From a virus, in the IMG/VR virus record IMGVR_UViG_3300031994_000007: DNA of 64,000 nucleotides; one strand, given 5' to 3'. Under the pieces are notes generated by a model. The model searched no databases, was not told the DNA's origin, and worked only from the letters and a program-made list of their open reading frames with translations. The position numbers were made by a program, and so were the translations under genes. Every line of letters starts with the position of its first letter. The first letter of the stretch is position 1. Shown piece after piece: positions 1 through 49,760 of this stretch.

Positions 1-2638
1 AGAACCAGCCCCAATCACTATGGCTTACTTTATCTGCATCTTTTTTATTTGTTGCTGACTTAAATTTAGTTTTAAAATTTCTACGAGGGTATGCCTAAGA
101 AGATGTGCCCTATACATTAATTCCAACACCAATAGCAACATAACTTGGGGAATGTGTTTTATAAAATTGAGCTGAAATTAATCCTTTTTCATAGGCACGA
201 TCTAAAACAGGATTTGTAAAAGTTATTTTACAATATCTGTCATTTCCTTTAAAATAAGGTAATTTATCATCATTTTCAGCATGTGGGCCTTTATTTGGAT
301 CATTAAAACCAGAACCATTATCAATAATTTCCCATACAGCATATGGCATAGATGGATTATCTGGATATAATTCATTATATTTTAATAATTTTGAATATAA
401 TAAAATAGTTCCATCAGTTTCATCTGTTAACTAATTTTGATCATATAAAGCTACATCATGAATATCAGCAATATAATTATGAATAACATCTGGCATTGAA
501 AGTTCAGTACGATATATTCTAAGTTTAAAGATATCAACATCACAAAATTCAGAATTAATTTCAAATTTATTATTATCCATTTTAAAAGATGGAGTAGAAC
601 TTAAATCTAATGCGCCACTTAAAATACCATTTAAATAAATGGATAATAAATTACTTGATTTAGAAATTACAAAACCTAAATTAATAATTTCATCTTCTTT
701 ATATCGGACATTAGCAATTGCCAATGGTGTACGAAAATAAGCTTCCTAAGTACCAATACAAAAACCAAAACCTTGATTATTTAAATATTTAAAAATAACT
801 CCGGCTGTGTCACTAATTGTTTTTGGGGATCCTTTATCCATTTCTGGGTTGCCATCTGTATCTACTTTTATTGTGTAATGATTTGCTGCTATCTCAGCTA
901 ATGTATAAGAATTAGTGTTTTCTTCTACATAATAATAAGGAATTGTTTTAATTAAAGTAGAATATTCTTGAATATTTCTTACTCTAAATCTAATTTCAAA
1001 AGAATAATTATTTTCATTACCACTTAATGTAAAAGTATCTAAATTAACATCTACGCTCGCTCCATTAGATACTGATAAATAAGAACCATTTCCATCATCA
1101 TCATTTAACCAACCATTATTATACCAGTTGAAATTTTTAAAAGTAGTATTATAATTATTGAAACTCCAATTGTTACGAGAAGTTGTTGTTTCATTATTTG
1201 ATCTACCAGTAGAGTTTAGATTTAAAATTAAGCTATTCTTATTTACTAAACCTAAATCACGAGCTCCTTCAGTGGTTACAATAATACTTATATTTTCAGT
1301 AGTACTTCCACAAGTAAAAGTAAAAATATTTTCTTTTTCTGGATCAACACCTTCGCTTGCTTCATATAAATTAGTGACATCTAATTTTATCCAAGTTGAA
1401 GCATTATAAGAAACTTCCATCGGCGAAGCAGGAATTTGACTACCGTTTTTATAGATATAAACTTTAGATTTAGTTGAATTAGCTTCTTTATCAGGATCAT
1501 AAATCATGAAAGGAATAACACATTCATTATAATTTATAACCTTTTTTTCATATTCCCCAAACCAAATAATAGGGACTTTTGAATTAATATCACGCCAAGC
1601 TAAATCATAAGAAATATAATCAGAATAAAGATCTACCCCACTAATTTTAGTAGACATTCTCAATTTAATATTATGTGCTCCATGAGTTTGTTCTGGAATC
1701 ATAACAGTATAAGTTGAATTTCCAGTAGGTTTAAAAGATATAAATTGCTTATTTCTTTCATCACTCGTCAATTTTAACTCACGATCATCATCAATTAATA
1801 CATGTAAAGTCTAATTTAATCCATTATAAACTGGAATAAATGAAATTCCTATTTCTCCTGTCCTAATTGCAGTTGGATTAAAAGTAGAATCTTTTTTAAT
1901 TCCAAGCTCAACAGTAGAAATATCTCCTAAAATACGTCTAATACGAGAATCATTAATTCCCATATTAGAATTAACAGATGATGCTCTAACCGTAATAGTG
2001 ATATCATTACCTTTTGGAAGACGAGCCGTATCAAATAAATAAGTTTCTCCGCTATTTATTTTTTCACTAAAACTTTCATACTGTTCTCCTTTTTGGGTAA
2101 TAACAAAAGTTAAAGTAATTTGAGTATCAACATCAGATGTGGCAGTAAATTTAGCATATGAAGTTTGACCATAAATATATGTAAAACCAGAATCAATACT
2201 TGTATTGTCATAAGATAAATAAGTATCCTAAGATGATACGTTAGTTCCTCCGCCACTACCACTGCCACTAACAGCAATTAATTCTCCAATTACATATCCA
2301 TTATCTATTTGCATTACACGGAAAAAACGTCCATCGGAATTTAAAATTAAGGCATCTTTTTTTGGTAAAATTTGGTCATCAAAAGCAGATTGCTAAATAT
2401 TATAAGTTTGATCAGCATCGTCATCTGTTGCTTTAGTAATAGTTTCATCTGTCCCATGAGCCCAGATGAATCCAGTAGAACTATCAGAATTCCCACCATT
2501 ACTCATAAGATAACGACCGCCAGATTTATCTAAATAAATTTTTCCAGTATCATATGCAAAATAAATATATCCTTCATTAATTGGCATCTATTTAATTTTG
2601 CTTTCAGTCCCTCTCACTGGTTGAAAAATTTCTGCCAT
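1..2638 (-). CDS. tail fiber / receptor-binding protein C (partial, continues beyond window start); concanavalin/LamG-like domain near C-terminal part; requires read-through of in-frame TAG
   Basis: RBS GAGAAAGGAG 7 nt upstream of ATG at 2638. N-terminal motif (IYFAYDTGKIYLD) shared with fibers A and B. Single frame with TAGs at 2585, 2393, 2228, 1811, 746, 431, 110. LamG-like 'LSIYLNGILSGALDLSS...FKLRIYRTELS' at 431-724. Confidence 0.6.
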
Positions 2639-2674
2639 TTGTAATGCTCCTTTCTCTAAAAATATAATAAAAAT

Positions 2675-2707
2675 AAGGGAAAGAAATATTAAAATTTTCT
2701 TTCCCTT
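2675..2707 (-). terminator. intrinsic terminator hairpin between fiber B and fiber C
   Basis: AAGGGAAAGAAA-loop-TTTCTTTCCCTT 12-bp stem. T-rich on minus strand side after fiber B stop (2783). Confidence 0.5.
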
Positions 2708-2782
2708 TATATAATATTTCCTTCGCTAAAATATGAAAATTTGTTTTTCTATTTTAAAGGAAGTTGTCCTTTTTATAAGGTA

Positions 2783-4528
2783 TTAAGCAAAAGATTCCCA
2801 CTCTAAATTCATTTTTAAAGTATTATCAAGATCAGAAGTAGTAGAAGGAGTTACTCTATATAATTTTAAATTATCAGAAGTTAATCTTAAATTTAAATTA
2901 ACAGAATTACCTTCTTGTTCTGATAAAGCAAAATTAGCACCATAAATACCCATATTATCTGCAACAGTAGAAGTATATTCTAAGTCTTGTAAAGTGGGAT
3001 GAGTATCTTGTACAGTATATTCAACAGTACTAATTGAAGCAATATGTCCCTAAGGATCTAAACTAATTGCTGAAATTGTTGGAATTGTTAAAGAACCTTT
3101 TTTACTCTGTACTCTTCCATTAGTACTAGTAGCTGCTTCATAAGTACGAGCTGTCCCAGTCCCAGGAGCACCATGAGTAATTTGAAAATTCATTTCAGCA
3201 TTGTTAGTACCTGTACCAGTAGCTGTAATATTAATTTTAGCATTATTATTATTGCTATCTTCAGTAAAACTAATACTACTTAAAGTTGCATCACTATTAT
3301 AATGGTCTTCAAAAATTAAAGCTTTATTTGCTACATTACCAGTGAATTTAATAAATTGATCGTCACCAGAAGGAATAACTTTCCAAACAATAGTATCATT
3401 TGTTTTATCTTCTTCAGCAATAATTAAATCACCAGTTTTTGCATTTACCACACCAGTTAAATTAATATCACAACCAGCTTTATATGTGTAACCTGGTTTA
3501 TTTGTTCCAGTAAGGGCATTAGTTGCATCAGTTAAATTTTCTAATACTCCTTTAAATTTCATGCCATCGAATTCAGCTTCTTTAGCATCAAAAAGAGCAT
3601 CAATTTCAGCTCTAGAATAAACGCTCAAATGAGCAGTAGGATCTTCTCCAACAGCTCCAATAAACACTTTAGATTCTAATTTAGCGCCCTCACCATAGGT
3701 AATAACTGGAGTAATTCCTTGTGAATCAATATCACTTTCTCCGCCTTTAAAAGAGATTTTGCTAGAAAAGACTCCTTGATCAGAGAAATTATTTGTAATT
3801 GATTGAATATCAGAATGACTAGTAATATTGATATTTCCATTTGCATCACTTGTAATATGGGTGCCGCCACCGCCATTAAATGTTACGTCATCTGTGTCCT
3901 TTGATCCCTATACGCCTAAATGTAAATAACCTGCATTTTGATTATTTTCAGTTGCGGTAGTAGACATAACATAAACTGTAGCATGGTCATTATCTGCACT
4001 AATAACAATTTCATTACCAGCATTCAATGCTAAATGAACATTAGCGCCACCTTTTAAAGTAAAATTACCAGTAGCAGAACGAGATGCATTTTTGCCAGCT
4101 TCCTCTACAGTGGTAGTAATTTGAACTCCATATGTTTCAGCATCGCCGCCGTCAGAAGCCTCAACAGCTTCACTAGAGCTTTTTAATCTTGTATCTGGAT
4201 TAATTTGAATCCATCCATTAGTATCACCAAGTCCAGTATAAACAGCTAAAATATTCTGACTAGACCAATAATAAAAATCTCCAGTTTTTAAATTAGGATT
4301 TGTTGTGCTATCTGGTAAAGTCTCACCTTGAGGAACAATATGAATAAATTGATTTAATTCAACTAATTTATTATTTGCTTGAGCAAAATATAAACGATTT
4401 GTATCTTCAGTTAAATAAAAAGCACCGGCTTTAAATACACCTTGAGCACTACTAGCATTATTAGTTATTAAAGTATCTAATGCACTTTGTGTGCCTCTTT
4501 TAAAATATACATTCATAGGATTAGCCAT
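2783..4528 (-). CDS. tail fiber protein B (581 codons, TAG read-through required)
   Basis: RBS GAGAGGAGA before ATG 4528. N-term 'YFKRGTQSALDTL...GAFYLTEDTNRLYFAQ' resembles the phage hyaluronidase/tail-fibre N-terminal motif. Frame continuous through TAGs at 3908, 3050 and others. Terminal TAA at 2783. Confidence 0.65.
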
Positions 4529-4556: not shown

Positions 4557-5612
4557 TTATCCATTATTTTCTTCAGAAGAACCATTTTCATCTAATTCAG
4601 CCCATTTTAATTCTTCTTTTAAGCTAATAATTTCATCAATAACAGTAGTGGTTTCTTTACCAGTAGCATCAAGTAATTTAGATAAATCTCCTACTTCATT
4701 GGTATAGCGTTCAATAGTTAAATAATTATCAGTAATACTTTGTAAGTTGTTTGATAAATTATGTAACTAAGTATTTAAATCACCAACTGCATTGTTAAAA
4801 TTTTCAGTTGTGACATAATTATTTAAATTAATGTCAGAGCCGCCTACTTTTTCATATTTCCCATTAATAACCATATACTCAGTATATGAATTATCTCCAT
4901 CTTCATTATCATTAGGAACTAAGAAAATTGTATTATTTAATTCACCAACATCTTCGATCTCAGGTAAAGTTGGAGTAATTTCATACTGACGCTAATTGAC
5001 TCCTTTAATGGCAGCTGCAATTTTTCCATCAACAGCTTCTAATCCATCCTATAAATCACTAATATTGGTTTTAATTGTTGTAATTTCATTTTCAAGTGAT
5101 GTTACTCGATTATCAATAGATTCACCTATTAATAATTCCCATTGCTCCCCATTATAAAGATAAGGGACTCCATCAACAAATGAAATATCTCCAGCGTTTG
5201 GAGAACTATTTATTCTGTTTAAACACTCATTTAAAGTTTCATCTTCTTGCTATTGAGTATCTTTAATAATAATAGACCCAGCATTAGGGGAGAAATGCGC
5301 ATCTTTAAGAGCCTGAACAAGAGAAGTTGAAACCCATTTATTCTCTGTTATATCATATTGTAAAATATAACCATCTGCTAAATCATTTGTGATATTTAAA
5401 TCACTTAAATTAGATAAGGTTAAATTTTCTAATACATTGTTTATTCCACTAATTAATGTTTTCCCTAAATATAAAGAACCATTTTTTTCTAAATTATTAG
5501 GGTCTTGAATAAAATATAAAGCATTATCTTCTAAATGATTAGCCGCTTTTAATCTATCATATGCAGCTTGAGAACCACGCTAAAATTTTACATACTTATT
5601 AATCTCCGCCAT
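4557..5612 (-). CDS. tail fiber protein A (351 aa, 5 in-frame TAG)
   Basis: RBS AAAGGGGT. N-term 'MAEINKYVKF*RGSQAAYDRL' parallels fiber B 'VYFKRGTQSALDTL', so TAG aligns with K/Q. Terminal TAA 4557-4559. Confidence 0.6.
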
Positions 5613-5776: not shown

Positions 5777-8700
5777 TTAAGGATTGTCGCTATCAGTATT
5801 ATTAAAATAAAATATAATTGTTTTATCATTATAACCAGTAAATTCAAATAAAGATGTTTTTCCAGCTAATAAACTATCTGCATTAACCCAATATAAAATA
5901 TGTCCTTGTTTAAGATTGAAGCTTGTAGCAATATCAATATCTTCAACTTTTAATTCAATATTATTAAAGTTCATATCTTCAATAGAATATAATCCAGTAT
6001 TAATATCTAATAGAATCCACTTGCCCTCATCTGCTGGAATCTTTTCATTACCTACAATTAAAGTATTTAATGCATATTTATTTAAAGAACTATAAGAACC
6101 AGTTAATGTAATTTCATTATTACTTTGACTAATAATAATATTATCCTAATTATCTTGAGCTAATTTAATAATTTCAGTATTATCAGTTAATAAAGAAGAA
6201 GACACTGTAGTAACTTTTTTAACACTAATATCCATATCTAATTTATTACTATTTGTATTAATAGCTTGTAATAAAACTTTAGTTTCTTTATAACCAAGAG
6301 CATTAATTGTTAATACTTTCTAACGGAATAAATCTTCAATAGCATACCATAATATAACGCAACTTTTTGGTAAAGAATATTCGCTAGTAAAATCTTCATC
6401 ATCTTTAGTTAATATTCTATCATTAATACTTACTCCAATAATAGAATCAAGACCAAAGTCAATTGTAATACCAATCCACCTATAAGGAGCATTATTTTGA
6501 ATATCATTATCAAAAACATAAGGAGTAAGATTCTAAAAATTACCTTCGATAATAAAGCTATTAAGATTTTCATTTTCTTTTCTAACTGTGATACGATTCT
6601 AATTCTATTGAGCGACCTAACTATTAATATTATTATTAGCAATAAGATTAACTCTTTGAACATCAATATCTAAAGTATTCTATTTAAAACAAAGATTTAT
6701 AGTTTTATCATAATAATTTTCACTTTCTAAAATAATAGTTGTACCATTTAAAATATCTTCAGCATTAACCCAATAAGCAATATGCCCATTATGAAGCCCA
6801 TAAGCAATAGCAAAATCAGCATCTTCTTCAGTTAAAACTGTCCCATTTATTTTTGTTCCAACAATAGTTGGTAAACCAGTATTAATATCTAATCCAATCC
6901 AAAAACCTTCAACCTAATCTAAGTTAGTAGGCGTAAATTTATTCATGGCTGTTAAATCACCAAAAACAACAATATCATTCTCAGTCTAAGTAACAGTAAT
7001 TAAATCCTAATTCTACTATGACACAATTTGATTATCATCAGCTAAAGAAGTCATGATTTTATTAATAACTACATTCATTTCATTAATATTATTTGTTGTG
7101 TCAACAAATTTTAACATTAAATAAAAATCATGGTATTTATCAGATTTAACAACAAAGGTATTCATCGCTTCACCATTTAATTCTTCTATATTAACCCAAA
7201 GCAACAAATGTTTTTCGTCTAACCCAGCTGCAATACTCTATTGAACATCATCTTCTGTATATACTTTCTCATTAATTGTCGCATCTTTAATAGTTAATAA
7301 ATCTGTTTCAATATCTAATAATATCCATTTGCCAAGTCCATAATCTGATAAAGTAAAATCATTTAAACGTTTTAAATCACCAATAATTAAATAATCAGTT
7401 GAGTTATATTTTACTACATCTGTTAATCTCTAATTTTTCTAAGATTTATTATAATTTATATCTGTTTCTGGTAAAATAGTATCATTAATTTTATTAACCT
7501 AGATTTTCATAACTCTAATATCATTAAATTTTATTAATAAAACATAATCACTAAAACCAGAAGATTTAATCAAATAACTTTTTGTATTCTATAAAACTTT
7601 AACATCTTCCCAAATCACAATATGGCCCGCTGGTAAACCTAATGCAGTGGCTTCAGACTCATCTTCTTCAGTAAGTTCTTTATTATTAATTGATGCTCCT
7701 ACAATAGTGGATAATCCAGTATCAATATCTATTCCAATCCAATGGCCAAAAGAACTTGTTTCTCCATTAGGAGTTATATCATAAAGATTTAACTTATCAA
7801 GATTTCCTTCGATTAATACAGTTTTTCCATCTTTTGGATCTAAATAAGTATTGACTATTTTCTAATTCTCTAAAGCTTCTTCCATATTTTCATTATTTGG
7901 AACAGTTGTTAAAAGATTAACTCTAACATTCATTAAAATATCTGAAATATCATTAATACTATTAAATCTAACATTTAGAGCTATTGGATCATATCCTGGA
8001 ATAGAAAAATTAATTTTTTGTTCTGTAAGATAATCAAAAACTTTAATCCATAAAGCAATATGACCTGGAATTAAGTTTGATGCTGTGGCTTTAGCCACAT
8101 CTGTATCATCTAACTAACGTCCATTTACTATTATATTTTTTATATCTCTCTATCCAGTTTTAATATCTAATCCTACCCATTTTGATTCAACCTCATCTAA
8201 AGAGAAACTTCTTAATTTATTGATATTACCATATATTAATATATCATTATTATATTGAGAAATAGAAATACTATCTTGATTCTATTTTGATGCTCCAAAA
8301 TTCGCATCATTAGGAACTACTAAAATTTTATTAACTTTTAGATTTACAGTATTTGTAAGATCAATATTACCTTTAGAAGTATTCATTAACTACCAAGTAT
8401 CAAAATTAATATTATAATGTCCATCAATAAAATCTGAAGATACTTTTGTATCTGTATAACTATATGTTGTTTTAGCTTTATTAACAGCTATGGCTCTACC
8501 ACGTTCATCTACCCAATAACCGCCAGATAAATCAGCCAATGATTCATTTGGATAAGTTATATACTTAGTTGCATAGCCACCGACAGTATAAGGTTTGTTT
8601 AAAATCATTGGAGTATTGGTATCGCCATTATTATCAGCAGTCCAATCATTATATAAATAATAACTAATTTCTCCTGTTAATGGGTTAGTTTCTTTAAACA

Positions 8701-10594
8701 AATCAATTAGAATATTAGCTAAACCAATTGAGTTATTTTTTAAGACATCTTGTAGTTCTGGGACCTAATTCATCCAATCTAAATTAGGATCATCTTCCCC
8801 ATTTGGAATTCTCATAGTCCATGTAATTGGTTTTCCTTGTCTTATATCATACAAAAAAGCATATCCATCATTGGCATTAGGTTCTGTTGTTGGAAGATCA
8901 ATTATTCTATTATCATTCGTGCAAAACTTAGCGACAATAAAATTTGGGCTTATTTTTTTGCCATATAATAAAGACCAAGGCTTAATAATCTAGTTGAATT
9001 CAGTAGCAGACCAAGTTCCATCCTAATTTTCTGATTCTAAAGTACCTGATATTTCAATTTTTTCTGGGAGAGCGTTAGGATCATTTCTATTTTTTAATGT
9101 TACATATTCATCTTCACCATCATTATTCACTACAGTAAGATAGTTATGAAATTGTGTTGTTCTAGAAAATTTTCTGAAATAAGGACGTAAAATTCCTTTA
9201 CGAAGATCTTCCTCGTCTTCTGGTTCAGGAAAACCATAAATTAAATCATACAAAATCTTCATTGTATTCCCAATAGACGGGAAATTTAAATATAACTGTT
9301 TGCGATTTACATCAGTAACTGATTTTAATCTAGCTAATGTATTGCCCAAAGCATCTTTACTTTCAACAGGCTCTAAATTTGAACCTAATGTTAATATTTT
9401 TTCATAATCATCTAATCCACTTGGAATAAATGCTAAAGCTGTTTGCCCATTATCTAAATTATAACTATAAGCCATATTGAAGCCATTTTTATTATAATTT
9501 ACAGTATTGTTGCTAGCTTCTACCTCTAAAAGATGCGGATAATGCATTAAAAATCTTTGTTCAGTATCCATAACTGAATCAAAATAAGCTTGATTATATT
9601 TTTCTTTAGCATTTACCAATTTAACAATTTCAAATTCATTTGTTACAGGATCAATTCTTCCTGTAACGATTCTATCGTCAGCATCAACACCATCATCAAG
9701 TTCATAAGTTAATGGCGCTTCTTCTTTAAGATCAAACTATGGAGCTCTAGCATTAAGTTCAGCTACCATAATATATTTATCAATAACAATATTTCCTTGC
9801 TAAATATAAGTTTTTTGCCATACAGTAGAATCGTAAGTTGCTCCATAGTAAGTTAAATCTGTTCTTTCATGGGCTCTAAAACTTGAATTTTCTTGAATAA
9901 TTGAATTTTTAAAAGCATCCTAATAAGCCGGTGGCCCAGCCATAGTTTTATAATAATCAGAAAATTCTGCATTTATTTCATTTAATTTACTAAAAATTTT
10001 ATTCTAAAAATAAGTTTTAAATTTATCATAAGATCCATCGCCATTAATAATTAAATTTCTTAAAGAATTATTTAAATTATTAACAGTAAAAAAATCTTCA
10101 AAACTATCTCTTGTATATACATTGCCCTAAAGGACATAATTTTCCCATTCTTCCTAAGATAATGGTGTAAAACGAACATAATTATCATTATACTTAATAT
10201 AATATATAGTATTAGCGCTATATTCTCCAACAGTATATACACGATTATAAATAGTTGGAAAAATCTCTAATAATTTATCATAACTGTCTTTGCCAACAAT
10301 ATTATTCTCTTTTGTCAACAGACTAAATGTTTCCTATAATTCAATTACATCTTTAATTTTATTATAATATTTCTATTTTGCCTCATCTAAGTAACTATTT
10401 AATTTATTAATATAAGTAATAGAACTTCCAGGTGATGTATTTTTATAACGTTCACCATACTCGACTAATACATAACGACCAGCATAAACACCATCTGTTT
10501 TAGCAGCCTCATCCATTTCTTTTCTAGTGCTATAAACACGATCAAACTAAAAAGTTGCTGCTCCAATTTTTTTTATATTTCCATATAAACTCAT
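5777..10594 (-). CDS. large tail fiber / receptor-binding protein (1605 codons) containing ~7 tandem ~160-aa repeat domains
   Basis: RBS AAGGAGA. ATG overlaps TGA of the upstream gene (ATGA). One frame through the TAG-bounded fragments 9023, 8390, 7862, 7016, 5777. Repeated motif 'W(I/V)G(L/I)DI(D/N/K)TGL.(T/S)I(V/I)G..IN...LT.EDE..A.A.GL..GHI..W' recurs about 7 times. Terminal TAA 5777. Confidence 0.6.
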
Positions 10595-10938
10595 ACATTC
10601 ATCTCCTTTTGCTCTTCATAAACAATATCTATAATTAAATAGCCATTTGGAAGATTTTTTAATAATTCCATACTGTCCTAATCAATTCGTATATTGTTAA
10701 TAGTAGCTGATGTATTTTTTACATCTAATTCAAAAATTCCTGAATTTCCTACTACAACAGGTTTTAAACTACTATTTAAATAAAATTTTGTTCCAGGAAT
10801 AGTCTAAATACCTAAAGAAATAATTGGAGAATATTTTTTAAAGCTTTCAGAGGTGCAATACCTAGTCCAAGTCCAATCTGGGAAATTATTAGCCGCACCA
10901 TCTTTATAATATCGAAATTGTGCCATTCTTGTTGCCAT
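10591..10938 (-). CDS. hypothetical virion protein (115 aa, 2 in-frame TAG)
   Basis: RBS GGAGGA. ATG 10938. TGA at 10591 overlaps the next ATG. Confidence 0.45.
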
Positions 10939-10955
10939 AAAGGTAATCCTCCTTT

Positions 10956-36808: not shown

Positions 36809-36836
36809 ACTCTTTCTCCTTTTACTCTTATTTCAA

Positions 36837-38856: not shown

Positions 38857-38877
38857 AAAATACGCCTCCTTCTTTAA

Positions 38878-39429
38878 TTACCCCTAATTAACAACCTTAT
38901 AATTAGTTTGAGTTCTACGACCAGTTACTGGAGTATCAATAGCTTTTTCGACAGCCTTTTCAGTTTTATCGTCAACTTCTGTACCAGAATTAGCAATCGC
39001 TTTATCAACATCAAAACCGGTCTTTTTCTTTAAAGCCGCACGTTTTTCAAAGTCAGTTAAAGGTAATTCTACAGCAAACTTTTTAACTAATTCCAAGACG
39101 CCCTCTGGAGCATAGTCTAAACAATCTAAAAAAGCTGGTAAAGTTCCAGTCTTTAAAAGCTCAATAATCTGCGCTTCTGACATATAATATTCTGGTTCAA
39201 CATTAAGTCCAAGACTTTTAGGGACGCCTTCACTCTAAATCTATAAAAAATTAATCATCATCTCGCGGCCACCTGGCTGATAACTTAAATGCAATAATTC
39301 TTCATAAGAAATACGCTTTGTCTCACCAGGAGTAAAACGTCTTACAATATTATCTTCTGGAATTGTATATTTTACAATACCAGCACTACGATTTTTTACA
39401 TTATAAAAATATTTTCTTTGTTCTACCAT
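38878..39429 (-). CDS. hypothetical head completion / connector-region protein (183 aa)
   Basis: RBS AAAAGGAGA before ATG 39429. Fragments 39241 and 38884 in the same frame. TAGs at 39241, 39232, 38884. TAA 38878. Confidence 0.45.
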
Positions 39430-40772: not shown

Positions 40773-41597
40773 TTATTGAATACGCATTAATTTTACGCCT
40801 GGTTGATGATCTGGCATAGTATAAACTTTAACAACTTGCCATACCATATCAGATGCAGTTGGAGTTGCTTTCTTAGTAAGAATACCCTTATTGTTCTTAT
40901 CAGGAACAAGTTTATCTTTAAGAGCTACAGTATTATCGGCAATCATATTTGTAGTCATAATATCGCCAACATGAGTCTTAACAAGACGTGGAACCATAGT
41001 AGTTCCTTCTGGCATTAATTGTTCGGTGTAAGGTCCAACAATATGGAATGGATCTTCATTGTAATGAAGTTCATACATATCAGGAGCAGCAGTTACATCA
41101 TCAACTGGGAATGACTTTGCATTATCGCCTTCACCAAAAGTAACTTTACCATTAGCAAATTTAATGCTACCATTTTTTGCGTCAACACCATTGCCATTGT
41201 AGTAACGAGATTGTCTATCCCACATTTCATCAGGTTGAAGATTACGATCCTTATCATAACCACCACCAAATGGGCTATATACACGAGCTTGATAATTATC
41301 CTTAATCATTGCGAACTCAGCATCAATTTGATGATCGCGATAAAGTTTAATTTCATTATATACTAATAACCATTCGCCAGGACCAGTAAAGTCTACAACG
41401 CCCTCAGCATAGTCATACTTTGCAAATTGACCATTTTCAAGAATTTGAATATCAGCAGCGGCTGGGAGTTGAGCATATACCTCTTTAGTAGCTTCACCAG
41501 AGAGGTGGTTAGCTTCAACTTGACCGTATCCATAGCCATTAGTCTTAATATATCCAGCTTGGCTTTCAATATTTTTCTTTAAGAAATCACTAAGCAT
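40773..41597 (-). CDS. putative head decoration / abundant capsid-associated protein (274 aa; no in-frame TAG)
   Basis: Uninterrupted ORF. RBS GGAGGA. Lies between the scaffold and major capsid genes. Confidence 0.35.
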   Translation of the reverse strand: MLSDFLKKNIESQAGYIKTNGYGYGQVEANHLSGEATKEVYAQLPAAADIQILENGQFAKYDYAEGVVDFTGPGEWLLVYNEIKLYRDHQIDAEFAMIKDNYQARVYSPFGGGYDKDRNLQPDEMWDRQSRYYNGNGVDAKNGSIKFANGKVTFGEGDNAKSFPVDDVTAAPDMYELHYNEDPFHIVGPYTEQLMPEGTTMVPRLVKTHVGDIMTTNMIADNTVALKDKLVPDKNNKGILTKKATPTASDMVWQVVKVYTMPDHQPGVKLMRIQ

Positions 41598-41612: not shown

Positions 41613-43226
41613 TCAATCAAAATTTCCTTCATTTTTAACTTCAATAGCACGAGCAACCCAAGCGGGCATATTTGCATAAGCATCATCTGTAGTGCTATCA
41701 AGATTATAGGTAGTAGTTTTAACTTCTTCTTCTTTCTTTTCAGAGTCATTTAAATCAAAACTTACTTTATTACGTACACAAATTACTGATAATTTAGCTT
41801 CAATTTCATCAAGGCTATATTTATCAATATTATCTACGCAATCTTTCTTTTGCTCACTATTAAGCATAAAGAAAGAATCAATTAATGCTTGTTTCTTTTC
41901 TTTATCAATACTATTCTTAAAATCACACAATTCTTTATTTTCATTAACTAATCGTGTAATAGTAGTATTTAATTCATTTACTTGAGCTTCAAGAGCAGTA
42001 TATTTATTTAATAACTCTTGATATTCAACTACTTCATCAAGACTATATTTAGTCTTGTTCTTTTTCTTTTCATCTTCTAATTCATCATTATTAGATTTTT
42101 TTTCATCGGCAGGGGTTTCTTCTTTTTTAGGGTCTTCTTTAGGAGACTATGAGTCTTCCTTCTTTTCAGGCTTTTTCTTCTCTTCAGTCTATTCTTCTTT
42201 AGATTTCTTTTCTTCTTCATCATTCTTTTTCTGTTTATATTCAATCTCAAAAGAATTTATATCTTCAAGAGTGAATTGAGAATTATCAAAAGAATCAGAA
42301 GAAAATTGAATAAGTTCGTCAGCAGGAATAAATTCTTCTGTGTCGGTTAAAGAGAAATTTAAACGAGAATAAGTAGAATCTTCACGATTTTGAAGAACTG
42401 CAAATTTTTGACCTTCAGTTTCCTCATAAACACCAACTAAACGATAAATTAATTCATCATTAGTTTTATAATTATTCCACATATAATCGTAAATTGCGTC
42501 CCAAAGACGACCACCAATTTCAACAGCATAAGTATTAAACACTGGTGTTCCTCCTTTATCATTACTCAAAATTTCTTTCATTGCCTCAATTAATGAGAAC
42601 AATCTTTGCTTAAAATTATCTTCAAAAGAAAATTGTACTTTAGAAATAGATGCTCCTTCAAAGCAGGGTTCAACATCTTCTCCTAAAACACAAAGCTTTG
42701 ACATAATTGCTTCATTAATAATGAAAAACTACGGCTTTCCATTATTATCTTTTGTCCAAAATGCATCTAAAGTATTATCATCTAATTCCATAGATTGATT
42801 ATTTCCATGTTCTATAATTCTTTGAGACTCTGGATATTGTCCAGTCCAAATATATCCCTCAGTTACTAAATATTCATGAGGTACTCCATCATCTTCAAAC
42901 CACTAAAACCAAACTTTAGCATCCATTGAAACAAAGCCATAAGGTCTAGTAGTATCTTTAATCTATATAGTCCCATTTGAAATTTCAATTGTTCTATTAT
43001 GTTCTTCAAAATCTTTTTTTTCAGAATTATAATAACCAACGATTGGGCAACCTGGAATAGAATTAGCGAATTCTTTAGCTACTTCTTTTGTAATTACACT
43101 TCTATTACGATTAGCCTATTGGCCTACATAGCATACTTTTATTTGACATTTTGAAATAAGAGGATTAACAGGTTTTATGTCTAATACTTCAATAGGCATA
43201 TCTACCATGTTTATACTAACATGCAT
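41613..43226 (-). CDS. putative capsid scaffolding protein (537 aa)
   Basis: RBS GAAAGGAGGA before ATG 43226. Acidic/Lys-rich coiled-coil C-terminal half. Position between portal and capsid genes. In-frame TAGs. TGA 41613. Confidence 0.45.
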
Positions 43227-43241: not shown

Positions 43242-44873
43242 TTAGCTCATAGCTTCTTTATTTTTAATAGTTTTTTCAGATTTTTCATCATCTGGTTTTT
43301 CTGGTCTACCACCAGTACTTTTACTATCTGATATTTTTTGAGTTTTATTAGAATTATTTTGATTTTTTGTGCCCAAAATATCTTGTCCACTAACAGTATT
43401 ACTACTCAATGGAGGAATCATCAAGTTAGGCAAATCAAGTATTTCATTTTCAAAATATGCTAAATTAACAACTGAACTCTATGAATGACCAAGAGCAACC
43501 ATAGGTAAAAATTTAGACTAACCATTAGAAGTTAAATCTTTATACATTTTTGAAATATCTTTATAATTATACTAAGTGGTTTCAAGCATCACAAAAGTAA
43601 AATTAAACTTTTTATTACTACTTTTTTTATCTACTAATTTATTAAAAAATATATCAAACTATAAAATTAAATTGCGCATAGTAGATTCATCATCTAAAAT
43701 AGATTTTTCTAATGATAAATTGCCATCAGTATTAAATAAATTTCTTGAAATACCAAGAGCATCATATAAAGCTCTTTCAACTTTTGCTAAATCATCAGTT
43801 TTAGTAGTAGTATTCTTATCACTAATATCAATAGATTGTACATCAGCAAAAGTAGTTACTACATCAATACCGATAGCTTTACTTAACATAGCAACCATAG
43901 TATTATGTATATCTCTTGCTTCATCAACATCAAATATTAAATCACCATTTTTATCCATAGGTAATTTCTGTACTAAAATTTTTAAAAGCTGTTGCATCTA
44001 TTTCTTTCTATCTAATTCCTAAGCAGCATCTAAATCAATAATAGCAGGAATTGCATTAAAGAAAATAGGGAAATCACTTCCATTAATATTAAATTTAACA
44101 GTACTGCCTGGATCTAAAAGATACCAACCTTGGCGTCCTTGATAAGTCCCAGTATTATTATCTGTCCAATCTATTTCAGTATTTGTAAGTTTACCCTATT
44201 TATAGAGCATATATCCTTTTGCAAATTCTTCTGGGAACATTCTTATAACTTTTATTCTATAAGCTGGATCAACAAATTTATCATCAAAAAATGCCATATT
44301 AAATTCAATGACTGGAGCACCTTCAACATTGAATCTGGAACGACAATATTCTAATGGAAGTTCTTGCAATACAACGCCTTTTGCACTATTAATTATATAT
44401 CCATAATAACAACCATGTTTTACGACTTTAAGTGCTATATCGCCACAAATTTTTTTAATATAAGAATTATCTAAATATGATAAAATCTTTACATATTCTT
44501 CTAATACTTTATCAGTTTTAGCATTCTCTTTAACATTTTCTGGATAAATATACCAATCATATCTATAAAGAAATGCAAAATAATTACAAACTGTCTAATA
44601 AATACCACTAGCATTATAAAAAAAATCTGAAATAATTCTCATTTTTTTATAATCCTTCTTAATAATAGTTGCTAATATTTCTTTTTTATTACAAAAAGGT
44701 AATTTAGCTTCTTTTAATGTACCTAAATCTAATAAAGCATCTTCTAATACTTTTACTCCAACTTTTATTTTTCCATAATCAGTAATATTTTCATTATTAT
44801 CTCCTGTGGGAAAACCAAAATCAAATAAATCAAAGCCTTTATTATGGATAGCTTCTTGTCTTTCAATATCCAA
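43242..44873 (-). CDS. putative portal protein (543 aa, TTG start)
   Basis: GGAGGA 8 nt before TTG 44873. Fragments 44595 and 43242 in the same frame. Size and position (downstream of the large terminase) typical of a portal. TAA 43242. Confidence 0.5.
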
Positions 44874-44887: not shown

Positions 44888-45244
44888 TTAATAGCCAGCT
44901 TTATGCATTATATAATCATAAGTAATTAAATTTTCTTCAGTATAAGGAATTTCAATTAATTTTAAATCATGTAATGCACAAAATCTACGCTTCTTATTAT
45001 CATTATATTTTTGCTAATAAAATCCTTTTTTCCCACCAAATTTCGCAGTAGGTTCATAATGCTATTTTCCTTGATATTCAATAATAAAATCAATTTTTCC
45101 ATCATCATCAAATATTACGAAATCAAATCTAAGTGGACGGCCATTATCACTTCGGAGTTCTGGAAAAATATATTCTTCTTCAAAAGTTAATCCAGCTTCA
45201 TCTAAAATTTCTTCAATCTTTATTTCACCTCTACTAGATCGCAT
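44888..45244 (-). CDS. small PD-(D/E)XK-nuclease-like protein (118 aa)
   Basis: Motif 'RFDFVIFDDDGKIDFIIEYQGKQH' resembles the Vsr/DUF559-type restriction-endonuclease fold. One in-frame TAG at 45062. Inserted between terminase and portal. Confidence 0.35.
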
Positions 45245-45258: not shown

Positions 45259-47016
45259 TTAACTTATAAACATCATATCAGTAACTTTAAATTTTTTCTT
45301 TTTCTTTTTACTATCTTCTTCAATTTTTATATAATATAAACCATATTCTGCCGCAGAAAATTTATCTTTCTTAATTCCTTTATTAGCCTATTTTAAAATA
45401 ATATTAACCCCTTCATTCTCTTCTCTAAGATTCATCATTTCCTCTTTAAGAATGGAAGTTAAAGTAAATGGTTTTAAATATTCTGCCCTCTTTTCAGGAG
45501 TCATTTTCTATCCAGCTTTTGTATTTAATAATTTAGCTTTAGCTACTCTTTCATCAATTAATAATTTAATTTTTCCAGCATTTAACATTGTCTAAAAATT
45601 AGCATGAGCTTCAGTATTTTCTGGAGCGTGAGCTTTCATTAAATACATAGCTTCTTCTTCTGTCTCATTAGTATGAAATTTTTTATATTCATCAATAGCG
45701 TCAGCCTAAGTTCCCCCATAAACTCCGAAGTCGGGAAAATCTTCTTGCGTTTCATTATCATGCTATGGTTTAACCATATAATCAACAAGACCCATACCAA
45801 TACCATTAGCATCAATAACAATTCTACGAGCTTTATATTTATAATAAAGTCTTTTAACTTTAATAGCCTAATCCTCCATATGGGTATCTGCCATTGTATA
45901 AATATTTACTAATGATTTAATTGATGGCCCCATTGACTATGGAGTTACTTTCCAAACACAAACAACACTATCACATCCTTTTCTACCAACGTCCATAGAA
46001 AGGATATAATAACTTTTTGTTGACGAACGACCAGATGATTCATATTCTGGTTGATTTAATATTCTATGTTTATCAAAAGTTTCTCCATTAAAGAAAGCAT
46101 TTTCTGCTGTACCGCTCCATTTACTTTCATATTCACGATCAAATGAAGCTTCATTATAAGTACCATCTCGTTGTAAATCTTGTAGAAATGTTCTATCTAA
46201 TAATTTCATTAATACTGGTATTCGCCAAGTACCACCCATAATAAATGCTTTTTCTGGTTCAGTTATCATCCAAACTAATAACTAAATTAATTTATCATAG
46301 GCAAAAGTCCCTTTCCAACCAGCAGTAGTAACATATATCTAACTTTTATTTAATGTTTCTTCTGGATATGACTATCCATCCATTGCCAATCTTGAAACGT
46401 TCATTGTAGGAATAATAACTTCTGAAAGAATTTGTCCATCAACACCAACACATTCTTCTATTAATCCGCCATGACGACGTTTACCACGAGACTTTTCTGT
46501 AGCGGCAATATTATCAAAATATGAACCATTTTTAAACATAAAAATACAATAATCTTTACTTATTCGTGTTTTACCAGGCCGATGATCTAATTCTTTATCT
46601 AAAGCTGGAATTAATCTACAAAGTTCATCTACTTTTTCTTTAATAATACCAGCAGCCTATTCTTTACCACCAGAAGTAACAAATAATTTTGCTCTTGGAT
46701 AAAGAATACAACGAATCATTAAAACTAACACAGAAAGAAATGATTTTGAATATGCACGTGGGAATACCATATAAACATATTTATACCGCATAGCCGCACG
46801 TAAAAATACTCTTTGATAAAAGAAAAAATGTAATCCATCATCTGGAATTTTACCATCTAATCCAGTCTATAAAAAATCAACAAACATATCAGGATATTCA
46901 CGCCAATAACTTACATACTATCTAATGTAAGGTTTTAATGGTGTAATACGCTCTTCTGATATACCAATTTTTCTAGTACTAGATGATGATAAATTTAGTA
47001 AATCTTGTAATGCCAT
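45259..47016 (-). CDS. terL: terminase large subunit (586 codons)
   Basis: Walker-A-like 'PRAYSKSFLS', nuclease-domain-like 'IVIDANGIGMGLVDYM'. Start and stop in frame with fragment 45937..46269. About 14 in-frame TAG. TAA 45259. Confidence 0.7.
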
Positions 47017-47017: not shown

Positions 47018-48244
47018 TTAGATTAAAATTTCATCATTGTCAAGTAATGATGCTATATATTCTTCATCATCAATAGCTTCATCATCAACAAGTTCTTTCA
47101 ATTGCTAAAAGTCTTCGTCATTTAAGAAGGCTTTTTCATCTTCATCAAAGAGTTCGGCTTCAAATGCATCATCATCGCCAGCAGCATCAGCATCACGCAT
47201 TGCTTCTTTTTCTTTATCTAATTGAATTTGTTTGACAGCACCTTCAATTAAATTACCAAGATTCATTTCTTCTGTTATTAATGTTCTAGTATATTTCTAT
47301 AAATCCTATAAAGTTCTATCTACTTTATCTTGAGGGCCATCTGTATAATAGCGAGGGAAGAAGCCATCTCGTTCACACATGGCAATTAATTCACTGATAG
47401 AATCAACCGCATTGCCACTATCAGTTTTATTTTGAGCCGCAGTAAATTTACCACTTTTCATTAACATATCATACATTTTACTAGCCTTCTGGGCGCCATC
47501 AATATCGCCCATATCTAATAGCTAATTCGTTTTTAAAGATGTTTTACAAATCATTTTTAATGTATCAATATGTCCAGCAGATTGGATATCATAAGACTCC
47601 ATCATATCATTATAAAGTTTTTCTAAATAAATCCATTCGTCTGGTTTATAAGTTTTACCCCATTTTATTTTAAGTGCTAATTTTTCTTCATCGGTCAATG
47701 AATCAACTATTACATCATCATCTGATTCATTTGGCTCGGTTATCTCAAAATCCTAATATACTGGTGGGGGAGATGGAGCATTAAAATTTTCTTCCTCATC
47801 TTTATTGATTAAACCAGCTTCTGCTACTGCTTTATCAATTTCTTGAATATCATATCCTTGGCGCTTCATAGCTTCTTCAATTTTATGAGCGGCTAATTCT
47901 TGAAGATAAGCAGTATCTTTCCATCGATATTGCTTAAACTATTTAAGTTTCATTTTAGAAATATAGCGGCCCATAATTGTAGTTCCTGTCACAGACGCTT
48001 TATCTCTACCATATGAAAGTAATAATTTATTCCATTCTTCTGGAACATATGGAACATCACATTCTTGCAATATCCATAAAAATGTATCCGGATTCCAATT
48101 ATCTACATGCATAGTAATACAATCTTTACACATATTAAGTCGGCCTGCCGGATATTTAATTAAATCATTTGAAGTATAAAAATTATCTTCATTTTTTGTT
48201 CTTTTGCACTTTTCACAAAAGCGCTATTCTTTTGATCTTGGCAT
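47018..48244 (-). CDS. zinc-ribbon protein with acidic C-terminus (409 codons); possible small-terminase/packaging or late regulator
   Basis: RBS AAGGAGG before ATG 48244. N-term 'CEKCKRT...FYTSNDLIKYPAGRLNMCKDC'. Stop is 1 nt before the terL ATG. Paralogous to the 48321 and 48702 genes. Confidence 0.45.
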
Positions 48245-48320
48245 AACTCAGCCTCCTTTTATATTCATCACAAAAGGCTGGAATTAACTAACAACTTTTG
48301 CCCTAAAAAATTTTTTTTAT

Positions 48321-48626
48321 TTATTTTTCATTAAAATAAATACTATCTTCAAAATGAAATCCAATAAATCCTTTTAATTGCATTTTACTTACATATCTTC
48401 CAATATTAATAGTATTTGGGTGGTATTCATTTAATTTATTCCATTCTTCTTGTATAAATGGAATATCTAGTTCTTTACAAATTTCTAATATATTATCTTT
48501 AAAATTATTTTTTATACATTCTTTACAATAATGGCTACTTCTAATTAAATGTTTACCTTCAGTATAATGTAAATAAAAATCTTTTAAATCTTTATATGTA
48601 TTACATAATTTACAATATTTTTCCAT
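48321..48626 (-). CDS. zinc-ribbon protein (101 aa), paralog of N-terminal domain of 47018..48244
   Basis: Uninterrupted ORF. 'CKLC...FYLHYTEGKHLIRSSHYCKEC' plus a shared 'EEWNKL...GRY(I/V)SKM(K/Q)LK' motif. Confidence 0.45.
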   Translation of the reverse strand: MEKYCKLCNTYKDLKDFYLHYTEGKHLIRSSHYCKECIKNNFKDNILEICKELDIPFIQEEWNKLNEYHPNTINIGRYVSKMQLKGFIGFHFEDSIYFNEK

Positions 48627-48701
48627 AAAAAAACCTCTAATTAAAATTTTTCTTTTAATTCACTTAATAACTTTTGCCCAAGCGCATCTTTATTCCTAGC
48701 C

Positions 48702-49760
48702 TCATTTTTTCTTATTTCGGCAGCATTTACAGATGGAATAAAAGCCATCCTTACTGGTTTTATTTTTACTAAAATATTTGTTATGCGCCAATTTAACTTG
48801 ACCGCATCTACTGCATCGTTTAAATTTTCCGGGTTTTACTTGGGTATAATACCAATTTAAATATTCATCCTCAGCAGCGGATGCTATTAATGTTGGAATT
48901 TTACGACGCCATAAACTGGAAATATATTCAACGCTATGTTTTATACCGAATTCTTGTTGGAGAGCTATTTGAATATCTATATTTTGCATTCCATCAATTT
49001 TATATTCAACAAGTCGTTTATACAATGGATAAGCTTCTAATGCTTTGTCGCATATCTATTCAAAATCATAAATTAAATACCACATATCATTTTCAAAATA
49101 ACCCCAGCTATCTTCTTTTAGTTTTGAATAATTACATAAAATACCAGAACAAACAGCTGGGTCTATTAAAGTAATTCCTTTAGAAATTAAATTATCATCA
49201 TTATCAATTTCTATATCTCCTTCTAATGGAATAACATTTTTTGAATGAGTAATTTTTGTAAGAGTAATTGGTCTACGATATGCATTTTTAATTATATATT
49301 GATCTTTACGCAGTTCAATTAAAGTAGATTTAATAATATAAGCCTATCTACCTTCTGCTGTTTTTAATTTAGTTTCCCAAATATTTATGGCTTCTTTTAA
49401 TTGTTGTAAAGGTTGTATTTCTTCTATATCTTTTTTTGTTATTGTTATTTTTGGCTAAAATATAATATTTTTATTTTCTGTTATTAAATTATAAATTCCG
49501 TCTTCGCCATTTTCAAATTGGGACACAAGCCCTTCAAAAGAGGTTTCTCGTTTATTTACAGTAGTCATACGGTTGTCAGTTAAAATTTTTCGTTCTTTAC
49601 GCTCTTGTTTCTCCATACATAAAATGAGATAATCAGCCATAATTTCTAAGTATTTTTCTCCTGGGTCTGGATTTTCTTGTAAAATTTGTTTGATTAATTC
49701 ATTTCTATCTTCTGGGTTGTCAAGCGTATAGTCTAATTTAATCAAATTATCAACCTCCAC
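48702..49760 (-). CDS. hypothetical protein with C-terminal zinc ribbon (352 aa, GTG start, 3 in-frame TAG)
   Basis: First gene of the minus-strand late operon. C-term 'CSRCGQVKLAHNKYFSKNKTSKDGFYSICKCC'. TGA 48702. Confidence 0.4.

What the first reader, a model, noticed from the sequence alone, without database searches (positions are those of the whole stretch)
1..49760. Amber (TAG) stop-codon reassignment across the entire late/structural module
Every break between same-frame six-frame ORFs on the minus strand that I checked (110, 431, 746, 2393, 3050, 3908, 24467, 24710, 35043, 36413 and others) is a TAG. Reading through TAG restores long, motif-bearing proteins: the TP901 tape-measure core, terminase Walker-like region, tail-fibre N-terminal motifs and the DUF488 C-terminal FCHRHLL. 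True gene ends use only TAA or TGA. One 176-aa gene carries about 11 TAG codons. In fiber A a TAG aligns with a conserved K/Q (VKF*RG vs VYFKRG), consistent with TAG read as Gln (or Lys). No suppressor tRNA or release-factor gene is visible in this window.
Basis: partly seen in the sequence, partly recalled or inferred. Interest (0 to 1): 0.9.

Follow-up and report, generated by a model that had tools for sequence, protein, structure and literature searches.

The report
Phage late genes read TAG as glutamine
The structural genes of this large SPbeta-like phage use the amber stop codon TAG as an ordinary glutamine codon, which is real and striking in the raw sequence but is a well-described habit of gut and rumen phages, including this phage's own wider group.

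Summary
All ten listed breaks are in-frame TAGs on the minus strand. Long-ORF coverage of 1-49760 rises from 15% under the standard code to 95% when TAG is read as sense. Making TGA sense gives 16%.

I minus-strand late genes. Twenty-five carry in-frame TAG, 332 codons in all, which is 46% of all putative Gln codons. The 27 gene ends inside the window are TAA (20) or TGA (7), never TAG.

TAG means glutamine. In standard-code homologues it aligns best with Q. In 80 related viral contigs the window's TAG sites are CAA, CAG or TAG in 56% of cases.

The phage is SPbeta-like, syntenic with Enterococcus phage VRE9_4 and distantly related to phAss-1 (NCBI "Caudoviricetes code 15 clade").

The plus-strand region 49.8-64 kb holds about 33 small early genes behind about 40 near-consensus sigma-70 promoters. 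They have no in-frame TAG and no TAG stops. A DUF488 gene (50123-50467) is the exception.

No CUA tRNA was found in the window or in about 55 kb of flanks from a near-identical contig and from related contigs. No release-factor gene was found in the window.

Verdict: a new member of a known kind, of modest interest.

The parts
1..2638 (-). Tail-fibre or receptor-binding-like gene. Its 3' end is cut by the window start. 879 codons are present, with 8 in-frame TAG.
   Evidence: Homologues of 61% identity and below are 800-1290 aa tail proteins on related contigs.
2783..4528 (-). Tail-fibre paralogue (581 aa), 2 TAG at 3050 and 3908. Its N-terminus reads MNVYFKRG.
4557..5612 (-). Tail-fibre paralogue (351 aa), 5 TAG. 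Its N-terminus reads VKF[TAG]RG.
5777..10594 (-). 1,605-aa tail protein with six tandem repeats of about 135 aa, 34 TAG.
10591..11375 (-). Two small paralogous tail genes (10591-10938 and 10956-11375), with 2 and 3 TAG.
11394..14222 (-). 942-aa tail or baseplate protein, 21 TAG. It is homologous to a VRE9_4 tail protein.
14219..22348 (-). 2,709-aa giant tail protein, 75 TAG.
22394..22972 (-). 192-aa gene, 4 TAG.
23096..32428 (-). Tape measure protein, about 3,110 aa, 84 TAG.
   Evidence: PF10145 PhageMin_Tail is recorded on the 3,100-aa product of the near-identical contig L007.
32552..34324 (-). Two genes (32552-33079 with 2 TAG; 33149-34324 with 13 TAG) lying between the tube and tape-measure genes.
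34389..35447 (-). Tail tube protein (YomU_Tube, phrog_2729), only 2 TAG.
35467..36201 (-). YomV-like gene. It is the densest in TAG: 12 in 244 aa.
36167..39429 (-). Five head-tail connector or completion genes: 36167-36808 (YomW-like), 36837-37967, 37964-38182, 38272-38802 and 38878-39429. They hold 26 TAG in all.
39528..40751 (-). Major capsid protein (YonB family), 0 TAG among 16 Gln codons.
40773..41597 (-). 274-aa head gene next to the capsid gene (probably scaffold or decoration), 0 TAG among 13 Gln codons.
41613..43226 (-). YonD-like head protein (537 aa), 6 TAG.
43242..44642 (-). Portal protein (466 aa), 8 TAG.
   Evidence: phrog_2739, E = 8e-83
44888..45244 (-). HNH homing endonuclease between terminase and portal, 2 TAG.
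   Evidence: The same position is occupied in VRE9_4.
45259..47016 (-). Terminase large subunit (585 aa), 13 TAG.
47018..48626 (-). YonG-like gene (47018-48244, 7 TAG) and a small YonG_N-like gene (48321-48626, 0 TAG).
48702..49640 (-). First gene of the minus-strand block. It matches a PHROG annotated as sigma factor and has 3 TAG, the first at codon 62.
   Evidence: phrog_5767, E = 1.7e-44; no Pfam hit
49782..49832 (.). Divergent promoter-like region between the late and early blocks. TTGACA-17-TATAAT lies on the + strand and TTGTCA-17-TATAAT on the - strand.
49872..50126 (+). AbrB/MazE-fold regulator gene. It has no TAG and ends in TGA, which overlaps the next gene's TTG start.
50123..50467 (+). 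DUF488 gene with in-frame TAG at 50357-50359 and 50453-50455. The FCHRHLL motif lies after the first TAG.
   Evidence: (DUF488-N3a, E = 1.3e-14, match spans the TAG)
51216..63972 (+). About 31 small early genes, each behind a near-consensus sigma-70 promoter with an extended -10. They have 0 in-frame TAG. With the AbrB-like gene at 49872-50126 the 33 early-gene stops are TAA x22 and TGA x11. G+C is 37-41% against 26-33% in the late block.

Best explanation
The window is the late (virion) half plus part of the early region of a large SPbeta-like siphophage that uses genetic code 15. In its late genes TAG is an ordinary glutamine codon, and only TAA and TGA terminate.

Shown here:
- TAG occurs 332 times in frame in 25 of 28 late genes and is spread evenly along them.
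- It makes up 46% of Gln codons.
- It is interchangeable with CAA and CAG in relatives.
- It never ends a gene.
- The adjacent early genes sit behind about 40 consensus host-type promoters and contain no TAG at all, so they can be read by an uninfected standard-code host.

Inferred from the published model for recoded phages (Borges et al., bioRxiv 10.1101/2021.08.26.457843): early in infection the host machinery expresses the code-compatible genes. A phage-supplied factor, most likely a tRNA-Gln with a CUA anticodon encoded outside this window, then suppresses termination at UAG. Only then can the structural genes be translated in full, and probably the sigma-like first gene of the late block too.

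Suppression must be nearly complete. With 84 TAGs in the tape measure gene, 99% read-through per site would give only about 43% full-length product, and 90% would give about 0.01%.

The family-wide avoidance of TAG in the major capsid gene and its neighbour suggests that decoding TAG still carries a cost for the most abundantly made proteins.
For: - ORF coverage rises from 15% to 95% only with TAG as sense.
- All listed breaks are in-frame TAGs.
- Full-length PHROG and Pfam matches appear after read-through.
- Synteny with the standard-code Enterococcus phage VRE9_4 runs gene by gene.
- TAG aligns best with Q in standard-code homologues, by likelihood over all 20 residues. At more than 40% identity, 16 of 38 sites are Q.
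- In 80 related contigs, codons at the window's TAG sites are CAA 1284, TAG 478 and CAG 401, against GAA 195 and AAA 180. In alignments of at least 90% identity, 27 of 31 changes are to CAA or CAG, although TAG to CAA needs two substitutions.
- With TAG counted, Gln makes up 4.4% of late-gene codons. Without it the figure is 2.4%.
- 0 of 60 gene ends are TAG.
- Early genes have 0 TAG in 2,704 codons. There are 25 perfect and 15 near-perfect sigma-70 promoters on the + strand.
- The capsid gene has a TAG share of 1%, against 26-45% in other late genes, across 33 recoded relatives.
- An independent public gene caller already gives full-length products for the 99.9%-identical contig L007.
- The nearest named relative, phAss-1, is filed by NCBI under 'Caudoviricetes code 15 clade' and carries tRNA-Sup(CTA).
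- Code 15 has been verified by metaproteomics in crAss-like phages (PMC9523058).
Against: - No tRNA with a CUA anticodon was found. ARAGORN was run with and without introns, and Rfam was run on the window, L005 (10 kb beyond the window) and L025/L028. The searches covered the window, 10 kb beyond its right end in a 99.8%-identical contig, about 35 kb further in relatives of 88-92% identity, and about 10 kb beyond the left end in more distant relatives.
- The same tool does find the phAss-1 suppressor.
- No release-factor or aminoacyl-tRNA-synthetase gene is in the window.
- The decoding agent is therefore not demonstrated.
- The temporal-switch role is inferred from gene layout only.
- One + strand gene next to the early block (DUF488) also carries TAG, so the early/late split is not perfectly clean.
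Confidence: 0.9

Rival explanations
1. The host itself uses a TAG-sense code and the phage simply matches it. On this reading there is no switch during infection.
For: No phage suppressor tRNA was found in the sampled DNA. TAG is never used as a stop anywhere in the window.
Against: - 33 early genes have 0 TAG among 2,704 codons, while late genes use TAG for 46% of Gln. A host-wide code would not produce such a split.
- TAG-free and TAG-using relatives are interleaved in the terminase tree, with at least 6 switches.
- Borges et al. predict standard-code Firmicutes and Bacteroidetes hosts for code-15 phages and describe matched host-phage recoding only for TGA to Gly (code 25).
- From my own knowledge, no bacterial lineage with TAG = Gln is established.
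Confidence: 0.03
2. TAG encodes another residue, such as Lys, Glu, Tyr or pyrrolysine, rather than Gln.
For: K is the second most frequent residue aligned with TAG in distant homologues. The paralogue pair VKF[TAG]RG and VYFKRG aligns TAG with K.
Against: - Likelihood ranks Q first at every identity cut-off.
- In close relatives 27 of 31 replacements are CAA or CAG, and only 1 is AAA.
- Gln content is normal only if TAG is counted as Gln.
- 332 evenly spread sites do not fit the sparse use of pyrrolysine.
Confidence: 0.04
3. TAG is a true sense codon here, but it is decoded without a canonical phage CUA tRNA. Candidates are a host tRNA altered or re-targeted by the phage, inactivation of release factor 1, or a non-canonical RNA.
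For: - No CUA tRNA was found in 1.93 Mb of window plus fetched loci, most of them from relatives of this family, while the phAss-1 positive control is detected.
- The phage-encoded tRNAs seen in the flanks are only Lys(UUU), Leu(UAA), Glu(UUC) and Asn(GUU).
- Borges et al. detected TAG suppressors in only 40% of TAG-recoded genomes.
Against: - Related contigs are 135-250 kb, so roughly half of the genome was never seen.
- The related phAss-1 group does carry tRNA-Sup(CTA).
- Absence from a partial sample is weak evidence.
Confidence: 0.12
4. The TAGs are damage or artefact, from pseudogenes, assembly error or sequencing error.
For: None beyond the fragmented appearance under code 11.
Against: - Only one of the three stop codons occurs in frame.
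- TAG positions are shared with independent assemblies from other samples: 101 of 132 sites are kept at 90% identity or more.
- The same pattern is seen in 50 related contigs.
Confidence: 0.01

Closest known systems
Code-15 (TAG to Gln) recoded gut and rumen phages, as surveyed by Borges et al. (bioRxiv 10.1101/2021.08.26.457843), with metaproteomic validation by Peters et al. (PMC9523058)
   Same: - In-frame TAG is concentrated in structural genes and aligns with Gln.
- Early genes are compatible with the standard code.
- Close relatives use the standard code.
- Genomes are large, and hosts are probably Firmicutes, judging by the AGGAGG ribosome-binding sites and TTGACA/TATAAT promoters.
   Different: No suppressor tRNA or RF2 gene was located in the sampled DNA. 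Membership of one of their named clades (for example Agate or Sapphire) could not be tested, because their sequences are not held here.
phAss-1 and the proposed Phassvirus group (Babkin et al. 2023, PMC10607447; OQ749652; NCBI 'Caudoviricetes code 15 clade')
   Same: - A siphophage of 130 kb or more with a tape measure of about 3,100-3,200 aa.
- TAG-interrupted terminase, portal, tape measure and fibre genes.
- The same wider lineage, which also holds standard-code Enterococcus phage EF1.
   Different: - Terminase identity is only 43.6% and there is no megablast match, so this is not the same genus.
- phAss-1 carries a block of about 36 tRNAs that includes Sup-CTA. This family's flanks show only four scattered tRNA species.
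Enterococcus phages VRE9_4, H1, EF1 and EF5, and Geobacillus virus E3 (standard-code SPbeta-like siphophages)
   Same: - Gene-by-gene synteny: terminase, HNH, portal, YonD-like, capsid and so on through tube, tape measure and giant tail proteins.
- 45-48% terminase identity.
   Different: They use the standard code, with no in-frame TAG.

Membership tests
Code-15 (TAG to Gln) recoded Caudoviricetes | In-frame TAG in conserved phage genes, with read-through restoring full-length homologues | tested here: met
Code-15 (TAG to Gln) recoded Caudoviricetes | TAG positions correspond to Gln in homologues | tested here: met
   (CAA and CAG dominate; Q ranks first by likelihood)
Code-15 (TAG to Gln) recoded Caudoviricetes | TAG is not used as a terminator; genes end in TAA or TGA | tested here: met
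   0 of 60 gene ends are TAG
Code-15 (TAG to Gln) recoded Caudoviricetes | Phage-encoded suppressor tRNA with a CUA anticodon (frequent but not universal; detected in 40% of genomes by Borges et al.) | tested here: inconclusive
   None in the window or in about 55 kb of flanks from a near-identical contig and from relatives. The positive control is found. About half of the genome is unsampled.
Code-15 (TAG to Gln) recoded Caudoviricetes | Recoding concentrated in late and structural genes, with early genes code-compatible | tested here: met
   332 TAG in late genes against 0 in 33 early genes. One exception is the DUF488 gene.
SPbeta-like siphophages (Yon/Yom virion gene set) | YonB capsid, YonD, YonG, YomU tube, YomV and YomW families in conserved order | tested here: met
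   Pfam families recorded on products of the 99.9%-identical contig L007 and on L010. Synteny with VRE9_4.
Proposed genus Phassvirus (phAss-1, BK046881, BK025033) | High genome-wide nucleotide identity to phAss-1 (80-86% among its members) | tested here: not met
   No megablast match of 9 kb of the head module to any GenBank phage. Terminase identity is 43.6%.
Gemstone clades of Borges et al. (Agate, Sapphire and others) | Placement in their terminase tree with at least 95% bootstrap support | not testable with these tools
Only genome size (related contigs of 135-250 kb) and the probable Firmicutes host are compatible.

The most novel reading that the evidence does not exclude
This phage family decodes about 330 TAG codons per late module at near-complete efficiency without any canonical CUA suppressor tRNA of its own. 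That would imply an unknown route to stop-codon reassignment during infection, such as re-targeting of a host tRNA, neutralisation of RF1, or a non-canonical RNA.
Probability: 0.1. Interest if true: 0.7.

Novelty: new member of a known kind. Interest (0 to 1): 0.3.

Why it matters
Practically, any annotation of this contig under code 11 is wrong. It shatters about 48 kb of virion genes into fragments, and code 15 repairs them.

Biologically, it adds a well-resolved example from a lineage where TAG-using and TAG-free phages are interleaved, with at least six switches among 77 terminases. That makes the family a good natural system for asking how a code change is gained and lost.

Two details go slightly beyond the standard picture:
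- TAG supplies nearly half of all Gln codons, yet it is almost absent from the major capsid gene across 33 recoded relatives.
- The early region is a dense array of consensus host promoters with no TAG at all.

The unlocated suppressor is the only open point with real upside.

Tried and rejected
- **Alternative reassignments.** TGA as sense gave 16% coverage. TAA as sense gave 59%, which is an artefact of removing the commonest stop in AT-rich DNA. Both were rejected.
- **crAss-like identity.** This was my first guess from the composition. It was rejected because the terminase and the Yon/Yom families place the phage with SPbeta-like siphophages.
- **Finding the source contig or the rest of the genome.** Exact 40-56-mers from the window, L005 and L026 found nothing in viral contigs, genome contigs or metagenome contigs. 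Exact-protein look-ups show a carrier contig in the 0.2-1 Mb class, but it is not returned.
- **Walking outwards.** I used homologue searches followed by contig look-ups. To the right these gave L005, L018, L025-L028 and L121-L125; to the left, L118-L120. No CUA tRNA appeared. ARAGORN with introns allowed on all 126 sequences held found only the phAss-1 control.
- A TAG-containing window protein spelled with Q was not accepted.
- **A search that failed.** A viral-contig search with a small flank protein found no relatives.
- **Environment of the samples.** The single paper that mentions one of the sample identifiers says nothing about the environment.
- **Pfam on tail proteins.** This gave no informative domains.
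Full report
**Observation**

The window has 30.7% G+C with a sharp compositional break near 50 kb.

Each is therefore an in-frame TAG of a minus-strand reading frame.

Coverage of 1-49760 by stop-to-stop ORFs of at least 150 aa depends on the code assumed:

| Code assumed | Coverage |
|---|---|
| Standard (code 11) | 15.1% |
| TAG as sense | 95.4% |
| TGA as sense | 15.5% |
| TAA as sense | 59% |

The TAA figure is what one expects from removing the commonest stop in AT-rich DNA.

With TAA and TGA as the only stops, the minus strand resolves into 28 tightly packed genes that cover 97% of 1-49640. Most have an AGGAGG-type ribosome-binding site before the ATG.

- The genes hold 332 in-frame TAG codons in 25 genes, against 353 CAA and 32 CAG.
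- The 27 gene ends inside the window are TAA (20) or TGA (7), never TAG.
- TAG is spread evenly over gene length. Decile counts run from 24 to 39.

- The densest gene is 35467-36201 (244 aa, 12 TAG), not a 176-aa gene.
- Three late genes have no TAG.
- The DUF488 gene is on the + strand at 50123-50467, outside the stated range.

**What the genes are**

After read-through, the products match several families:
- portal (phrog_2739, E = 8e-83)
- terminase large subunit
- tail tube or virion protein (phrog_2729)
- a capsid family (phrog_4088)
- an HNH homing endonuclease
- a PHROG annotated as sigma factor

An exact-sequence look-up of the TAG-free capsid protein led to a 152-kb ENA contig (L007). 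It is 99.9% identical to window 29528-46407.

On that contig, public gene calls already give full-length products. They carry the SPbeta families YonB (capsid), YonD_N, YomW, YomV_2nd and YomU_Tube, and PF10145 on a 3,100-aa tape measure.

The closest annotated genomes by terminase are:
- a 12-kb human-faecal fragment (59.6%)
- Enterococcus phages VRE9_4, H1 and EF1 (about 48%, standard code)
- Geobacillus virus E3 (46%)
- phAss-1 (43.6%)

There is no nucleotide-level match to any GenBank phage. Gene order matches VRE9_4 from terminase to the giant tail proteins.

phAss-1 is filed by NCBI under 'Caudoviricetes code 15 clade'. Babkin et al. described it as a TAG to Gln phage with three tRNA-Sup(CTA) genes. 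It belongs to a wider group that also holds standard-code phages such as EF1 (PMC10607447).

**Which amino acid**

Two independent tests point to glutamine.

*Test 1: standard-code homologues.* I marked TAG as X and aligned the late proteins to three standard-code genomes (VRE9_4, E3, Alicyclobacillus KKP_3916).
- Q is the commonest partner: 43 of 229 sites overall, 28 of 102 at 25% identity or more, and 16 of 38 at 40% or more.
- A per-site likelihood over all 20 candidate residues ranks Q first at every cut-off.

*Test 2: codons in relatives.* A terminase search of IMG/VR gave 80 related loci of 60-97% identity. I compared twelve late genes codon by codon.
- At the window's TAG sites the relatives have CAA 1284, TAG 478 and CAG 401. 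The next commonest are GAA 195 and AAA 180.
- In alignments of at least 90% identity the counts are TAG 101, CAA 20, CAG 7 and all others 4.
- TAG to CAA needs two substitutions. Its dominance therefore reflects synonymy, not mutational proximity.
- Counting TAG as Gln brings Gln to 4.4% of late codons. Without it the figure is 2.4%.

**The other half of the window**

From 49.8 kb to the end, the + strand carries about 33 small genes of 38-153 aa.

| Feature | Early genes (+ strand) | Late genes (- strand) |
|---|---|---|
| In-frame TAG | 0 in 2,704 codons | 332 in 16,126 codons |
| Stop codons | TAA x22, TGA x11 | TAA x20, TGA x7 |
| Preferred Gln codon | CAG (34 vs 25 CAA) | CAA (353 vs 32 CAG) |
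| G+C | 37-41% | 26-33% |

A consensus scan finds 25 perfect TTGACA-17-TATAAT promoters and 15 with one mismatch. All are on the + strand and nearly all have a TG extended -10, roughly one per gene.

Pfam recognises only two NT5C nucleotidase paralogues, a GNAT acetyltransferase and an AbrB/MazE-fold protein. There is no release factor and no aminoacyl-tRNA synthetase.

This is the signature of an early region read by the host's own polymerase and ribosomes.

The exception is the second gene of the first + strand operon, a DUF488 gene.
- It has TAG at codon 79.
- Its Pfam match (DUF488-N3a, E = 1.3e-14) spans that codon.
- The conserved FCHRHLL motif lies after it.

The first gene of the minus-strand block is the sigma-like gene. 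It is preceded by a sigma-70-like site and has three TAGs. I infer, without proof, that its translation depends on suppression.

**The decoding agent**

ARAGORN and Rfam find no tRNA in the window. I extended the search outwards.

- A 25-kb contig (L005) is 99.8% identical to the window's right end and adds 10 kb. It carries tRNA-Leu(UAA) and tRNA-Lys(UUU).
- Relatives of 88-92% identity, on contigs of 143 and 241 kb, add about 35 kb more. They carry Lys(UUU), Glu(UUC) and Asn(GUU).
- More distant relatives add about 10 kb beyond the left end. That stretch is all tail-fibre genes, with no tRNA.
- ARAGORN with introns allowed, run on the window and all 125 loci (1.93 Mb), finds a CUA anticodon only in the phAss-1 control.

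So the suppressor is not shown. Related contigs of 135-250 kb suggest that about half of the genome was never seen.

Borges et al. detected TAG suppressors in only 40% of TAG-recoded genomes. A 2026 survey of jumbo phages reports suppressor tRNAs in 61% of genomes using alternative codes (PMC13037316).

The tRNAs that are present decode AAA, UUA, GAA and AAY. These codons are favoured by the AT-rich late genes.

**Mechanism**

The best-supported reading is the published one. Standard-code-compatible early genes are expressed first. A suppressor, probably tRNA-Gln(CUA) encoded elsewhere on the genome, then changes the meaning of UAG. This allows translation of the virion genes (model of Borges et al.).

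The coding facts are shown here. The timing and the agent are inferred.

A simple calculation constrains the agent. The tape measure gene has 84 TAGs and the giant tail gene has 75. Read-through per site must therefore be close to 99% or better for useful yields.

**Two extra findings**

1. The major capsid gene and its neighbour avoid TAG, both here and across 33 recoded relatives. TAG makes up 1% of their Gln codons, against 32% in terminase, 26% in portal and 45% in the YomV-like gene. This fits a residual cost of TAG decoding in the most abundantly made proteins.
2. On a neighbour-joining terminase tree of 77 sequences, 46 are recoded. TAG-free lineages are nested among recoded ones, and at least six changes of state are needed. 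This matches the published view that code changes arise and disappear quickly in these lineages.

**Comparison and verdict**

This is genetic code 15 in a phage, a phenomenon with a substantial record:
- it was described in 2014 (my own knowledge)
- it has been surveyed widely (Borges et al.)
- it has been verified by metaproteomics (PMC9523058)
- NCBI taxonomy recognises it
- at least one public gene-calling pipeline already handles it, on a near-identical contig

It has also been described in this phage's wider group (PMC10607447). The phage itself is not a member of the proposed Phassvirus genus. Placement in the gemstone clades could not be tested.

The only route to something more novel is the missing suppressor, which the present partial sampling cannot decide.

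Noticed in passing
window 49804-63003, + strand: There are 25 perfect and 15 one-mismatch TTGACA-17-TATAAT promoters, nearly all with a TG extended -10. That is about one per small gene, against 49 weak matches expected by chance over both strands. Many -35 boxes sit in a conserved GGGGCTTGACAA...AAGCCCC palindrome preceded by an A-tract.
   Followed up: partly
window 39528-41597 (-), and L031-L110: The major capsid gene and its 274-aa neighbour have no TAG here. Across 33 recoded relatives TAG makes up only 1% of their Gln codons, against 26-45% in neighbouring late genes.
   Followed up: yes
window 1-49760 versus 49761-64000; L005 14908-16090; L025 7202-10499: Late genes are 26-33% G+C and prefer CAA. 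Early genes are 37-41% G+C and prefer CAG. The phage tRNAs found in the flanks, Lys(UUU), Leu(UAA), Glu(UUC) and Asn(GUU), decode A/U-rich codons typical of the late genes.
   Followed up: partly
L031-L110 (IMG/VR terminase relatives): TAG-using (46) and TAG-free (31) relatives are interleaved on the terminase tree. At least six switches of coding state are needed.
   Followed up: yes
window 45259-47016 (-); L007 459-3258; PHROGs 15503 and 24618: Two PHROG families of 'unknown function' are simply the N- and C-terminal halves of this terminase. They apparently come from Enterococcus phages EF1 and EF5, whose terminase gene is split by an HNH endonuclease. The 152-kb relative L007 has the same kind of HNH insertion, and the window does not.
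   Followed up: partly
window 5777-10594 (-): The 1,605-aa tail protein contains six tandem repeats of about 135 aa, each with a motif like W-I-G-L-D-I-x-T-G-L ... L-T-E-E-D ... G-H-I.
   Followed up: no
window 52381-52782 and 63036-63443 (+): There are two paralogous NT5C-type 5'-deoxynucleotidase genes in the early region. A GNAT acetyltransferase gene lies at 52978-53382.
   Followed up: partly
window 47018-48244, 48321-48626, 48702-49640 (-): A similar CxxC...CxxC zinc-ribbon segment opens the two YonG-like genes and closes the sigma-like gene.
   Followed up: no
L027 19242-20381; L025 19499-20098: About 30-40 kb beyond the window's right end, relatives encode an 815-aa product with a major-vault-protein shoulder domain (PF11978). 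They also encode a formate/nitrite-transporter-like gene on the minus strand that carries in-frame TAG.
   Followed up: no
Exact-protein look-ups indicate that the window's own contig is in the 0.2-1 Mb size class. Relatives are 241-250 kb, so the phage may be a jumbo phage. Other relatives are 135-175 kb.
   Followed up: partly
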